From Eledone cirrhosa (Eukaryota), in the NCBI GenBank assembly GCA_964016885.1, contig OZ024752.1, positions 48,670,001 to 48,734,000 of the forward strand: a stretch of 64,000 bases of DNA, given 5' to 3'. The notes under the pieces are model-generated. The model saw only the letters and a list, made by a program, of their open reading frames with translations. It was not told where the DNA came from and did not search any database. This document shows positions 7,540 through 61,355 of the stretch, in pieces. Position 1 is the stretch's first letter; each line of letters starts with the position of its first letter. The translations under genes and the position numbers were made by a program.

Positions 7540-7735
7540 GGAACGAGTAGAACCCCGACGGCTGAGCTCAAGCCGTTTCGACGGCTAATTCTGGACTCCA
7601 GAATTAGCTGGGTCCAAACGGCTTCAGCTCAGCCGTCGGGGTCCTACTCATTCCTATTACCCACTCTACTACCCTAAGTATTGAGTACTTTGGTGCATTA
7701 TGGTCCATCTGGTTCCTTACCACATTTCCTTTGTT
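7540..7735 (+). mobile_element. Fold-back PLE-like element family b (3' half of HHR plus tail) in (TA)n
   Basis: Inverted arms 7540-7595 and 7597-7656, then tail ttacccactctactaccctaagtattgagtac...; homologous to 12297, 28426 and 45234. Confidence 0.75.
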
Positions 7736-7749
7736 ATATATATATGTAC

Positions 7750-8145
7750 CCAACTACACCTCTCAAAGTCAATGACACACGACCGTGACTTCTGGCGTCA
7801 CGCAGTAATACAGAGTACCCGACCTCCCATGGGTACATGCTGAAGCATATAGACAATATGCCCCCCCCCCCCCCAACGCAAGGTGGTCGTGGAGGTGCCA
7901 CGGCAAAAAAGCACCCAGCCCACACTGTAAAGTGGACGTGTAGGCGCCACGAAAAAGCACCCAGCACTCACTGTAAATGAGGTTGGTGTTAGGAAGGGCA
8001 TCCAGCTGTAGAAATCAAGCCAGATCAGTTCCTGTATGAGCAAGGCATGGTCAGCCGACCAGACACTGCCCACAACAGGACAACCCGTCTAACCCATGCT
8101 AGCGTGGAAGAACGGACGTAAAACGGTGATGATGATGATGATGAT
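7750..8145 (+). mobile_element. 5'-truncated RTE LINE: C-terminus QLHLSKSMTHDRDFWRHAVIQSTRPPMGTC* plus long 3'UTR and (TGA)n
   Basis: DR-x-x-WR motif typical of RTE ORF ends; the 3'UTR is shared with the 3' half of SINE B. Confidence 0.75.
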
Positions 8146-8148
8146 TTA

Positions 8149-8482
8149 TATAAGGAAAAAAGATGAAACAGAAAATGTAACTGGAGTCTTTTTTTTTCTT
8201 TAAATATATATTTATTTGGTTCCTTTACCGATTTTGCAGTTCTTCTGCTTTTCAAAAGTAGAATTGAGATGGAGGGTTTGTGGTTTTTCAAACCCTCCAT
8301 CTCAATTCTACTTTTGAAAAGCAGAAGAACTGCGAAACCGGTAAAGGAACCAAATAAATATATATTTAAAGAAAAAAAAAGACTCCAGTTACATTTTCTA
8401 TTTCATCTTTTTTCCTTATACTTTCACTCGTTGTAGGACACCTCGTTTTTTTTTCATTTTGTAAAAAAACCTCACTTTCTAA
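8149..8482 (+). mobile_element. Fold-back PLE-like element family c (arms of about 132 bp plus tail)
   Basis: Arms 8149-8280 and 8289-8420, unique tail to about 8482, followed by (TA)n. Confidence 0.75.
8306..8349 (+). ncRNA. Minimal type I HHR with U3-A8 core variant
   Basis: ttc(ta)ctt-TTGAAAA-gcag[aagaa]ctgc-GAAA-ccgg-TA^aaggaa; palindromic CCGG helix III. Confidence 0.7.
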
Positions 8483-8584
8483 TATATATAAATATATACA
8501 TATATATATATTAGAAAGTGACGTTTTTATATATATATATATATATATATATATATATATATATATATATATATATATATATAT

Positions 8585-8920
8585 GGAAAGTTATATTTAA
8601 AATTGTTGGGTTACAACTAGTAAATATTTATAACTGGTATAAAAGCACTCGACAAATATTTGGAGTATATTTACAATATTAAATAAATGGAAAACTATAT
8701 TTATAAAACCATATTTATTTCATTATATATATTTCGGGGATATCATATTAACATGGAGTCGGTGTTATAACGGTATGTCGAACCTATTTGTCTATAAAAC
8801 TGTTTATATTGTATTTTGTCTGATGAAGGCATAGCATATTGTTAATATGATATCCCCGAAATATATATAATGAAATAAATATGGTTTTATAAATATAGTT
8901 TTCCATTTATTTAATATTGT
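8585..8920. mobile_element. Head-to-head PLE-like element family a flanked by (TA)n
   Basis: A minus arm with tail, truncated inside stem II at about 8753, joined to a plus arm with a complete HHR ending aatattg|(TA)n. Confidence 0.75.
8812..8877 (+). ncRNA. Type I hammerhead ribozyme (family a)
   Basis: tattttgt-CTGATGA-aggcatagcatatt[gtt]aatatgatatcccc-GAAA-tatata-TA^atgaaata. Confidence 0.8.
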
Positions 8921-8949
8921 ATATATATATATATATATATGTATGTATA

Positions 8950-9175
8950 TCATCATTTTACGTCTGCTTTTCCCTGCTTGCCAGGGTGGGACTGGTCCTT
9001 TTCAGCACATCATCTCTCCATTCGTCACGGTCCTTCGTCATCTCCACCGTGAGCTTCAGCAATCTGAGGTCTGTTCTCACCACCTCCGCCCATGTTTTTC
9101 ATGGTCTACCTCTACTGCGTCTTCCTTCTACTGGTATTTCTTGGCACTTCTTTACCCAGCGGTGATCCTCCATGG
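8950..9175 (-). mobile_element. RTE LINE 3' fragment (MEDHRWVKKCQEIPVEGRRSRGRP...)
   Basis: Homologous to 58334-58614; in-frame stop. Confidence 0.85.
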
Positions 9176-9252
9176 TAAAGTGTATGTATAAATAAATATT
9201 CATATATATATTTATGTAAGCAAACAGTACCTGATTTAGGAGCCGCAGAAAC

Positions 9253-58614: not shown

Positions 58615-58636
58615 TATATATATATATATATATATT

Positions 58637-58888
58637 CAATGATATTAAATAAATGGAAACTATATTTATAAAACCATATTTATTCTATTATATATATTTC
58701 AAGGGTACCAAAAATTTTGGTGCACTATCATCAGATAAAATACAAAATGTTTTATAAATATTTGACGTAACCAAGGATAATATACCTTAATGGTTCAAGT
58801 TATCCTTGGATAATTAACTTGAACCGTTAAGGTATATTATCCTTGGTTATGTCAATATTTATAAAACATTTTGTATTTTATCTGATGA
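58637..58888. mobile_element. Head-to-head PLE-like element family a, right arm truncated at CTGATGA
   Basis: Arms 58728-58802 and 58815-58888. Confidence 0.75.
58681..58742 (-). ncRNA. Type I hammerhead ribozyme (family a variant)
   Basis: Minus: tattttat-CTGATGA-tagtgcaccaaaa[t]ttttggtaccctt-GAAA-tatata-TA^atagaata. Confidence 0.75.
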
Positions 58889-58899
58889 TGATGTTAAAA

Positions 58900-59290
58900 G
58901 TGCATGGCTTAGTGGTTAGAGAATTGGTCTTGCAATCGAAAGGTTGTGAGTTCAATTCTCAGACCGGGTGATGTGTTGTTTCCTTGAGCAAGACACTTTA
59001 TTTCAAATTGCTCTAGTTCACTCAGCTGTAGAAATGAGAGGATGGGGACTGGGGTCCCTATCATTCCACTGCAAAGTGGTTGTGGAGGTGCCATGGCAAA
59101 AAAAGCACCCGGCACTCACTGTAAATGAGGTTGGTGTTAGGAAGGGCATCCAGCTGTAGAAATCAAGCCAGAATCAGTTCCCGTATGAGCAAGACAAGGT
59201 CAGCCAACCGGTCACCGCCCACAACAGGACAACCCCTCTAACCCATGCTAGTGTGGAAGAACGGACATAAAACGATGATGATGATGATGA
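58900..59290 (+). mobile_element. CORE-like SINE family B, long-tail variant
   Basis: Head and CORE as at 11919; tail as at 8030-8140. Confidence 0.85.
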
Positions 59291-60771
59291 CAATGACAAC
59301 AAAAGAGAGTAAGACAAGTCAGAACGCTACAAACCACATAATACAACAATACAACTAAAAGTTGATATATAAATTTTACTGTTATTTTAATATTTCTTTC
59401 ATATTCTCTTTCTTATTGTTCTTATTATTGTTATTGTCCCCTACATGTCAGCCCTTGGGGCCAATAAATGAAATCGTTATTGTTATTATTGTTTCACCTT
59501 GTTTTTTTCAATGTTTTTTTTTCTTTATTAGATTTGGAATGATTTTACTGTTTGTTTTTTTTTTTTTCATTTGTTTTTATTCACTATTGTTATTTTATTT
59601 ATCAATCTATATGTTTATTGTTCATTTTTTTTTTCGTGTTTGTTTTTTGTTAGATTTTTTTTGTTTAATCTTACTCAATGAACTGAAAATATGTAAAAAA
59701 AAATATGATAAAGAATAAAAAAAATAAAGAATAAAAATATAAAAATAAAAATATAAAAATAAAAATATAAAAATAAAAATATAAAAATAAAAATATAAAA
59801 ATAAAAATATAAAAATAAAAATATGCAAAAAATAAAGATAAAAAATAAAAATATGTAAAAAAATAAAGATAAAAAAAATATAAAAATAAAAATATAAAGA
59901 ATAAAAATATAAAATAAAAATATGTAAAAAATAAAAATACAAAAAATAAAAGTATAAAAAAAAAAATGGTTGCCTTATGGCTGCCAATCACTTCCGCAAC
60001 AGCTAGTCTAACAGAATATATATACATCCCTTTACAAAGGTCCAGTATCAGGAACAAAAAAAGAGTATATACACACACATGTGAGTGTGTGTGTATACAT
60101 GTGAGTGTATGTATATACATATACACACACACACACACACACACATGCATATATATATATATCTATATATATCTATATATCTCTCTCTCTATATATATAT
60201 ATATCATCATCATCATCATCATCTTCGTTTAACGTCCATCTTCCACGCTATATATACACATAGATATACACACACACACATGCATGTCTCTCTCTCTCTC
60301 TCTCTATATATATATACATAGAGAGAAAGAGAGAACGATAGAGAGAGAGAGAGACGTGTGTGTCTGTGTATATATATAATATAATCAATCTGATGTCCCA
60401 AATAATTAGACAAACATAAAAAAAAAGAAGTAAAGCTGGTCCCCCACAACCATCCATTTCCCTACTTACTCCAGAAAAATAAAATAAAAAATTATAAAAA
60501 CTAACAACAAAAAAACCTTTAAAGAAGCTCCCCCCCCTCCCCCCTCCATCCCGCCAACAATGAAATAAAATGGTTTTATTGAAAGTAGCATGTAGAATGT
60601 AGGAAGTAATGATCTGGTAGACAACAATGTCAGAACATAGTTTGGCATTGTTATATTGGCACTTGTTAAACACTGAAATATGAAAATGGAAGGGTTAACA
60701 AAAGGAGATATATATATATATATTCATTCAAAATATTAACAAAAAAAGGAACTTCATTTATGATCAAGTAT

Positions 60772-60836
60772 ATTTTATTATACATATTTCAGAGGTACTG
60801 AGCTAACTTCAACAGTACGTCCTCATCAGATAAAAT
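60772..60836 (-). ncRNA. Type I hammerhead ribozyme (family n, minus arm)
   Basis: Reverse complement of 60931-60995. Confidence 0.85.
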
Positions 60837-60930
60837 TGACATAGTAGATGGTTAAGATCCAGTCATGGTAGTGACTACCATGACTAAATCTTAACCATCT
60901 ACTATGTCAGGGTATGTCGTGCATCATCTT

Positions 60931-60995
60931 ATTTTATCTGATGAGGACGTACTGTTGAAGTTAGCTCAGTACCTCTGAAATATGTATAATAAAAT
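60931..60995 (+). ncRNA. Type I hammerhead ribozyme (family n, plus arm)
   Basis: attttat-CTGATGA-ggacgtactg[ttgaagttagct]cagtacctct-GAAA-tatgta-TA^ataaaat. Confidence 0.85.
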
Positions 60996-61180
60996 ATACT
61001 TGATCATAAATGAAGTTCTACTTTTGTTAATATTTTGAATGAATATTAATAACTCCGGAAAACCACTTCCAATCTATTGTAAAACTAATTCTTTGATTTA
61101 TTCATTGAACCTTGTTTAACCTTTAAATATATATATATATATACGTGTGTGTGTGTGCATATATATATATTTATATATAT

Positions 61181-61355
61181 AATCGGGGGGTAACCACAGT
61201 AAGTAAGGTACTCAATACATAGCAGAGTATAAATATTTAATATAGAAAAGCTTCTACAGGACTAGAACTGTTTCATTCGTGAGAAATCATCAGGAGCTTC
61301 CTGATGATTTCTCACGAATGAAACAGTTCTGGTCCTGTAGAAGCTTTTCTATATA
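61181..61355. mobile_element. Fold-back PLE-like element family i with two HHR cores
   Basis: Arms 61241-61295 and 61299-61353; tail on the minus strand at 61181-61240. Confidence 0.8.
61295..61345 (+). ncRNA. Type I HHR (family i), U10.1·U11.1
   Basis: agcttc-CTGATGA-t-ttc[tcac]gaa-t-GAAA-cag[ttctggtc]ctg-TA^gaagct. Confidence 0.8.

What the first reader, a model, noticed from the sequence alone, without database searches (positions are those of the whole stretch)
7540..61355. Shared insertion architecture: tail-less arm ending at an internal TA, joined head-to-head to a tailed arm
Seen in five unrelated families, and less cleanly in family h: the short arm stops at a TA that is internal in the long arm. 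Family a: aatattg|TA vs aatattgTAaatatactcc. Family b: ttcc|TA vs ttccTAttaccc. Family c: ttcct|TATA vs ttccttaTActttc. Family n: gaatgaa|TA vs gaatgaaTAttaat. Family i: ttttc|TATA vs ttttcTATAttaa. Both outer ends are 3' ends facing (TA)n, the arms duplicate the same sequence, and they can truncate independently (8585 vs 14958). Inference: two cDNAs are primed from opposite strands of a self-complementary (TA)n target, one at the RNA 3' end and one internally by TA microhomology, then joined head-to-head. This differs from L1 twin priming, where arms do not overlap, and could use a dimeric ribozyme RNA as template.
Basis: partly seen in the sequence, partly recalled or inferred. Interest (0 to 1): 0.72.

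Follow-up and report, generated by a model that had tools for sequence, protein, structure and literature searches.

The report
One-tailed head-to-head Penelope insertions
These back-to-back repeats are the ends of Penelope-like jumping genes (shown for three families, likely for the rest), and nearly every scorable insertion carries the extra 'tail' on exactly one end, likely because the element's enzyme copies one RNA twice, from two fixed internal start points, into both strands of a cut TA repeat; the layout is already known, and the strict one-tail rule is the added part.

Summary
The architecture is real, genome-wide and present in raw reads. Families a, b and h are pseudo-LTR ends of protein-coding Penelope-like elements with Hydra-clade motifs. 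An inverted truncated copy with a tail at one end is a published hallmark of these elements, and two internal start sites were shown in vitro in 2024. Other reports in this scan found the same thing on other DNA.

Corrections: the tailed end is not the RNA 3' end, because the tail runs on into the ORF leader. The tail-less arm is often the full-length one. No ribozyme dimer is needed.

Added here: a near-strict one-tail rule. It holds in 42 of 42 scorable ORF-linked copies, 38 of 38 pairs in a 664-kb sample fetched without regard to content, and 47 of 48 pairs on contig C1 (the exception is unresolved). Both arms share one haplotype, their inner ends are independent, and TA overlap at the short end is enriched (13 of 18 clusters, 4.1 expected) but not required.

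Best model (about 0.5): twin internal priming of one RNA on a doubly nicked (TA)n, then joining of the two cDNA ends.

The parts
7540..7735 (.). Family b insertion: tail-less arm (minus, 7540-7597) joined head-to-head to tailed arm (plus, 7597-7735; 80-nt tail)
8153..8480 (.). Family c insertion, centre near 8284, tail about 60 nt; hammerhead-like core with U3-A8 variant at 8314 (+). ORF link not shown
8585..8918 (.). Family a insertion: tailed arm (minus, 8585-8753), tail-less arm (plus, to 8918) that reaches further 5' than the tailed arm; hammerhead core at 8820 (+)
12298..12445 (.). Diverged family b insertion: almost tail-only arm (minus) joined to a tail-less arm (plus)
14959..15221 (.). 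Family a insertion: tail-less arm (minus, core at 15058) and tailed arm (plus; tail 15133-15221, 89 nt)
28426..28628 (.). Family b insertion, near-perfect 61-nt arms; short-end site at about 28548-28550, tail to 28628
38164..38262 (.).
45234..45432 (.). Diverged family b insertion, 79-nt tail
45505..45723 (.). Family h insertion, 90-nt tail; pLTR of the 713-aa Hydra-type ORF family
58635..58889 (.). Family a-related tail-less arm with inner palindrome, interrupted on the right by another repeat
60724..61127 (.). Family n insertion (about 72% alike to an a-related reference around the hammerhead), 84-nt tail; cores at 60829 (-) and 60938 (+)
61182..61354 (.). Family i insertion: tailed arm (minus), tail-less arm (plus) followed by another repeat instead of (TA)n. 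ORF link not shown

Best explanation
These are insertions of Penelope-like retrotransposons (ORF-linked for families a, b and h) in which each scorable copy has two head-to-head arms ending at two different fixed internal sites, one before and one after the tail, likely because the element's protein nicks both strands of a (TA)n repeat and uses the two DNA ends to prime reverse transcription at those two sites on one RNA. Shown here: the two fixed ends, that both lie inside the repeat unit, their near-perfect anti-correlation, the shared haplotype of the arms, and independent inner ends. From the literature on another clade (PMC11167929): both strands are cut and extended, reverse transcription starts at two adjacent internal sites that bound the tail, and the protein is predicted to be a dimer. 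Inferred: both starts are used once each on the same RNA molecule; the tail-primed polymerase displaces the first cDNA, so the arms duplicate sequence; position is set mainly by the RNA or the complex and fine-tuned by 2-5 nt pairing of the (TA)n primer; the two cDNA 3' ends are then joined by end-joining and serve as each other's second-strand template. Short palindromes likely arise when both cDNAs run off the RNA 5' end just upstream.
For: One-tail rule: ORF-linked family a 15 of 15 scorable (L043 plus 14 of 20 fetched), h 20 of 20 scorable of 30, b 7 of 7 scorable of 8; content-blind sample 38 of 38; exact-pattern hits on C1 gave 47 short+tailed, 0 short+short and 1 tailed+tailed; 13 of 19 unpaired tailed ends fetched had a tail-less partner, none had a tailed one. 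Either site can give the ORF-length arm. The tail continues into the ORF leader in a, b and h (100 exact run-on matches for a). Arms share variants: 20 shared and 8 one-arm in 13 short copies, 4.9 expected when re-paired, 0 of 20,000 permutations reached it; full-length copies show the same. Inner ends more than 50 nt apart in 32 of 35 junctions; overlap of 2 nt or more in 13, 0-1 nt in 12, inserts in 10. In family b palindromes no arm passes one base upstream of an initiator-like site, and 4 arms carry a non-genomic G there (small set biased towards the query).
Against: No RNA or biochemical data here; no RNA start or end was observed. Shared haplotype fits two units of one tandem or circular transcript equally well. 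In vitro, the anole protein started at sites not homologous to the cut DNA and showed no strand difference in start site (PMC11167929), and coupling per event was not measured. Strand displacement by this RT is assumed. Only 13 of 35 junctions show 2 nt or more of overlap, which was not tested against a null. One tailed+tailed candidate (L257) is unresolved: its arms are 4 kb apart with unrelated DNA between. Families c, n and i were not tied to an ORF.
Confidence: 0.5

Rival explanations
1. Asymmetric complex on two RNA units (closest to the first reader's dimer idea): each protomer copies its own repeat unit of a tandem or circular transcript, or a partner RNA from the same donor, and one protomer always starts before the tail and the other after it. 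No displacement of the first cDNA is needed.
For: Full tandem arrays exist (period about 3,540 nt in family b). ORF-linked arms often run past one full unit into an upstream copy of variable length. A neighbouring 310-bp array shows two multi-unit arms. Minimal hammerheads of these elements are proposed to act as dimers (PMC4209133, passages).
Against: It needs an extra rule to force one start of each kind. Both arms cross the predicted ribozyme cut site, and ribozyme mutants did not change insertion in vitro (PMC11167929). Shared haplotypes make RNAs from different donors unlikely.
Confidence: 0.22
2. The two ends are endonuclease cuts in an element DNA intermediate, made at TA-like sites on either side of the tail, not priming sites (the 'EN-mediated resolution' suggested in PMC8557442).
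For: Both ends are TA-rich like the target. PMC11167929 cites earlier work in which the tail was needed for endonuclease recognition and cleavage of Penelope DNA.
Against: In vitro start sites of reverse transcription fall on the tail boundaries (PMC11167929). No intermediate geometry that gives two 3' ends facing outwards with independent inner ends is evident. Some families end with 0-1 nt of TA overlap.
Confidence: 0.12
3. Self-priming (fold-back): one cDNA or antisense template folds back and is copied, giving the inverted arm (proposed in PMC3846280); asymmetry comes from later deletions at unstable palindrome centres.
For: It explains shared haplotypes. Short copies are often symmetric, and family b centres lie at the tip of a natural hairpin. 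Palindromes are known to lose their centres (own knowledge).
Against: Only 1 of 35 ORF-linked junctions is symmetric within 20 nt. The tail-less site starts the long arm in about half of full-length copies, so short+short palindromes are expected, yet none was found in 38 and 48 pairs. It does not explain why the second end is always the other site.
Confidence: 0.1
4. Whole palindromic elements are copied as units from palindromic masters (MITE-like), or are assembly fold-backs.
For: High copy numbers and near-identical arms.
Against: Centres differ from copy to copy (26 distinct centre sequences in family b) while outer ends are fixed; arm lengths run from under 10 nt to over 4 kb; raw reads carry the ends and joints.
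Confidence: 0.03

Closest known systems
Insertion units of endonuclease-positive Penelope-like elements: partial tandem pLTR, inverted 5'-truncated copy, one-sided tail (PMC8557442 section 6 and Fig. 2 legend; PMC3846280)
   Same: Head-to-head inverted copy next to the upstream pLTR, tail at one end, tail overlapping the ORF leader, hammerhead in the pLTR, solo pLTRs, (TA)n targets.
   Different: Those papers say 'often' or 'optionally' at one end and give tails of 30-40 bp. Here the rule is near-strict, either arm can be the long one, and tails are mostly 79-91 nt (range about 31-171).
Hydra clade of C-terminal-endonuclease PLEs (PMC8557442 section 11)
   Same: RW[K/R] motif, DKT, CxCX5C linker, no CCHH, CxxC and CxH around the conserved E and N, hammerhead motif, (TA)n insertion.
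   Different: Units here are 3.25-4.0 kb rather than under 3 kb; RWR rather than RWK; no phylogeny against named Hydra elements was run.
PAc (Poseidon, green anole) in vitro mechanism (PMC11167929)
   Same: Both strands nicked and extended; two adjacent internal start sites bounding the tail, downstream of the hammerhead.
   Different: PAc starts at a site not homologous to the cut DNA and cuts at ATT; coupling of the two sites in one event was not reported. Here short TA overlap is enriched and the sites are used one each.
L1 twin priming
   Same: Two target-primed cDNAs, one from each strand, joined head-to-head by end-joining.
   Different: L1 primes one cDNA at the poly(A) 3' end and the arms cover different parts of the RNA; here both starts are internal and fixed, and the arms duplicate each other.
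Animal non-LTR retrozymes (10.64898/2026.07.22.740005)
   Same: Type I hammerhead sequences related to PLE pLTRs.
   Different: Retrozymes are tandem arrays; the window's elements are single two-armed stubs of coding elements.

Membership tests
Endonuclease-positive Penelope-like element | Single ORF with telomerase-like reverse transcriptase | tested here: met
   688-aa open frame with YRDD; model with pLDDT 83.5 whose top four PDB matches are telomerase RTs, E about 1e-9 to 1e-8. Pfam and PDB sequence searches gave no hit. b and h ORFs carry the same motifs.
Endonuclease-positive Penelope-like element | C-terminal GIY-YIG endonuclease | tested here: met
   NIVY...YVG, R, N, H, E pattern aligned with 16 homologs; atlas neighbours at 0.94-0.96 carry GIY-YIG, RVT_1 and HTH_animal on some members; direct Pfam support is weak (1 of 17, E 0.012).
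Endonuclease-positive Penelope-like element | Partial tandem pLTRs, inverted truncated copy and tail | tested here: met
Endonuclease-positive Penelope-like element | Hammerhead motif in the pLTR | tested here: inconclusive
   Core motifs in the expected order in a, n, i, e, h and a U3-A8 variant in c and, by eye, b. Single-strand folds were not better than shuffles (z 0.70 to -1.14); the Rfam listing was swamped by microsatellite matches. Cleavage not testable.
Hydra clade | RWK-like motif, DKT, CxCX5C linker, no CCHH, CxxC and CxH motifs | tested here: met
   Read from the translations of a and h (all motifs) and b (N-terminal motifs only) against section 11 of PMC8557442.
Hydra clade | Insertion into (TA)n | tested here: met
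Hydra clade | Placement in the Hydra clade of the RT tree | not tested
   No named Hydra reference sequences were in hand.
Endonuclease-positive Penelope-like element | Families c, n and i linked to their own ORF | tested here: inconclusive
   Run-on pattern searches for c and i returned (TA)n-ended or tandem copies, none running into an ORF among 20 loci each; n is linked only by likeness to an a-related reference.
L1-type twin priming | One cDNA starts at the RNA 3' end and arms do not overlap | tested here: not met
   Tail continues into the ORF leader and arms duplicate each other.

The most novel reading that the evidence does not exclude
Two-ended, coupled priming is the normal and obligatory insertion mode of these Penelope-like elements: one protein dimer uses one RNA at two sites about 80-90 nt apart, one per strand, and the two first-strand cDNAs template each other, so there is no separate second-strand priming step. 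The tail would be the footprint of the spacing between the two active sites, and a short pLTR RNA would be enough to direct double-ended insertion of cargo into (TA)n.
Probability: 0.35. Interest if true: 0.7.

Novelty: new member of a known kind. Interest (0 to 1): 0.42.

Why it matters
How Penelope-like elements make their inverted repeats and tail is stated as an open question in PMC8557442 (section 15), and the steps after first-strand synthesis remain unvalidated in PMC11167929. A near-strict one-tail rule, with either site able to give the long arm and with shared arm haplotypes, narrows the possible mechanisms and gives a simple two-barcode assay. It also tells annotators that these abundant short palindromes are stubs of Penelope-like elements, not MITEs, miRNA hairpins or assembly errors.

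Tried and rejected
Rfam at E 1 was swamped by microsatellite matches to miRNA models; no hammerhead among the 150 rows shown of 640. Tail-only DNA search for family b found nothing because common words are skipped. Pfam and PDB sequence searches of the ORF were empty; the single-sequence fold was useless (pLDDT 31). No RNA holder was listed, so RNA starts, ends and circularity were not observed. Raw reads were examined for family b only. A dimer prediction was not obtained, so the dimer rests on the published prediction for another clade. The three-way comparison of inverted, 5' and 3' pLTRs did not separate circular from tandem templates (four loci there were misaligned or separate insertions). 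One search swapped inner and outer labels; its family h statistics were dropped and redone. L168 was first counted as an ORF-linked pair and then dropped, because its inverted arm pairs with a separate short arm; L161, L171, L172, L174 and L175 lacked one end; 10 of 30 h loci and 1 of 8 b loci were unscorable; one b end (L255) stops two bases past the short site and was counted as tail-less; junction continuity was not checked for the b loci. The one 'short+short' row is the tail-to-tail pair at 4323-4624, not a head-to-head pair. Empty-site comparison was not possible: no relatives are held. Literature searches found no statement of a strict one-tail rule, but Evgen'ev and Arkhipova 2005 and Arkhipova 2006 were not readable here and figures and most supplements were not seen.
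Full report
Observation. In each, two copies of one sequence lie head-to-head with their 3' ends facing outwards; one arm stops at a site I call S, and the other runs 60-90 nt further to a site L. 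The same layout appeared in several more families in a 664-kb sample (the window plus 60 stretches fetched without regard to content). Raw Illumina reads from three runs leave the family b arm into (TA)n at window 28550 (3,320, 2,831 and 2,864 reads) and at the tail end, and carry opposite-strand joints. An assembly artefact is therefore excluded for that family, though long reads were not seen.

What the elements are. A tail-only search for family a returned 40 places, 30 kept as loci. One of them is a complete element: (TA)n, a 2.2-kb inverted tail-less copy, a head-to-head junction, pLTR plus tail, a 688-aa open frame, a 3' region, pLTR plus tail, (TA)n. The protein has the YRDD motif, a C-terminal GIY-YIG pattern, and the motifs that PMC8557442 (section 11) lists for the Hydra clade: RW[K/R], DKT, CxCX5C, no CCHH, CxxC and CxH. 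Its model (pLDDT 83.5) matches telomerase RTs best. Pfam and PDB sequence searches were empty. Family b runs into a related ORF, and family h is the pLTR of a 713-aa family. Families c and i were not tied to an ORF, and n only by likeness to an a-related copy. Hammerhead cores lie upstream of S on the sense strand; their folds alone were not significant.

Both ends are internal. In ORF-linked copies the tail does not end the unit: it continues into the ORF leader in a, b and h, each time at a TA-like site (100 exact run-on matches for a). In family a the tailed end occurs in two registers 2 nt apart.

One-tail rule. Among ORF-linked copies with both ends in view, exactly one end carried the tail in 15 of 15 for a (L043 plus 14 of 20 fetched), 20 of 20 for h (of 30) and 7 of 7 for b (of 8). 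The ORF-bearing arm was the tail-less one in 6 of 15 (a) and 12 of 20 (h), so neither site is tied to the long arm. In the content-blind sample, 38 of 38 head-to-head pairs were S+L, with 41 ends unpaired. Exact-pattern hits for family a on the first 185 Mb of C1 (66 S, 100 L) gave 47 S+L, 0 S+S and 1 L+L head-to-head pairs. The L+L arms are 4 kb apart with unrelated DNA between them and may be two elements. Of 19 unpaired L ends fetched (of 50), 13 had an S partner, none an L partner, and 6 had none in view. These sets may overlap and are not summed. Genome-wide exact counts were 1,468 S and 2,218 L, but the L pattern was more degenerate, so the ratio is not informative.

TA microhomology. 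Of 84 mirror hits, 42 passed a fixed filter and formed 18 end clusters; 13 had 2 nt or more of overlap with the alternating repeat against 4.1 expected, and 10 had 3 or more against 2.3. Some clusters are related and at least two may not be Penelope-like. Five clusters had 0-1 nt. Family i splits between a TA site and a site about 9 nt further on with almost no overlap (5 and 5 of 11 inverted arms). Position thus seems set by something else and tuned by pairing (inference). PMC11167929 found no homology for the anole element.

Inner ends and haplotypes. In 35 resolved ORF-linked junctions (of 40 tried), inner ends differ by more than 50 nt in 32 and by 20 nt or less in 1, median 464 nt; 13 show 2 nt or more of overlap, 12 show 0-1, and 10 have inserts. 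Arms of one insertion share variants (20 shared, 8 one-arm, 13 short copies; 4.9 expected on re-pairing). Short palindromes have preferred centres: in family a both inner ends fall in a 16-nt zone in 12 of 18 (labels read the other way round; two are a local duplicate), and in family b no arm passes one base upstream of an initiator-like site, with a non-genomic G in 4 arms. This fits cDNAs running off a capped RNA start, a lead taken from note e1-9952324 and only partly tested.

Mechanism. One RNA holds one S and one L per pLTR. If both nicked strands prime on the same RNA, every insertion gets one of each, the arms share a haplotype, and inner ends are free to differ. That is my best reading (0.5). 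It needs strand displacement and end-joining, neither shown. An asymmetric complex on two units of one transcript (0.22) predicts much the same. Endonuclease resolution of a DNA intermediate (0.12) and fold-back self-priming (0.10) fit less well: fold-back predicts symmetric centres and S+S palindromes.

What is known. [quoted passage not shown] PMC3846280 (passages) describes the tail on one of the inverted pLTRs and proposes self-priming. PMC11167929 (parts 1-2 of 4; term search of 3 supplement files empty) shows cleavage and extension of both strands and two internal start sites bounding the tail. PMC4209133 (passages) notes paired hammerheads on opposite strands 100-700 bp apart and the U3-A8 core. 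10.64898/2026.07.22.740005 (part 1 of 5) links retrozymes to these elements. L1 twin priming is recalled. Seven searches found no strict one-tail statement, but older closed papers and figures were not seen. Earlier notes of this scan reached similar readings on other DNA; they are not counted as support.

Verdict. Real, and a new instance of a known architecture. The value lies in the strict coupling of the two ends, which makes the open mechanism directly testable. Interest 0.42.

Noticed in passing
window 4295-4624: Two tail-less family a-related arms face each other across a central (TA)7, the reverse (tail-to-tail) topology; no tailed partners seen nearby. Possibly two insertions into one repeat.
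   Followed up: partly
   Followed up: partly
tails of families a, b, h, e, n and two single-copy clusters: Tail lengths converge on 79-91 nt in families with unlike sequence, against 30-40 bp in the literature; others are about 31-75 or 140-170 nt.
   Followed up: no
L250, L251, L253, L286; G000:C22:9579951-9580961: Internally deleted units (about 195 to 960 nt) that keep the same two-armed or tandem layout, i.e. non-autonomous derivatives.
   Followed up: no
L224-L227 (G000:C1:91.476-91.487 Mb) and C1:437.20-437.21 Mb: Full-length family b tandem arrays with a period of about 3,530-3,540 nt.
   Followed up: no
L258:560-800: A tailed family a arm runs directly into the 310-bp array sequence; chimeric junction or later insertion.
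   Followed up: no
window 28628-28660, 45432-45505, 8480-8585: Elements of different families share one (TA)n run, so insertions pile up in repeats that flank earlier ones.
   Followed up: no
window 54453-54813: Two copies of another dispersed repeat in inverted orientation, without (TA)n ends; not part of this architecture.
   Followed up: no
window 25089-25288: A 200-N gap.
   Followed up: no
window 55271-56135: A low-complexity array that is partly self-complementary.
   Followed up: no
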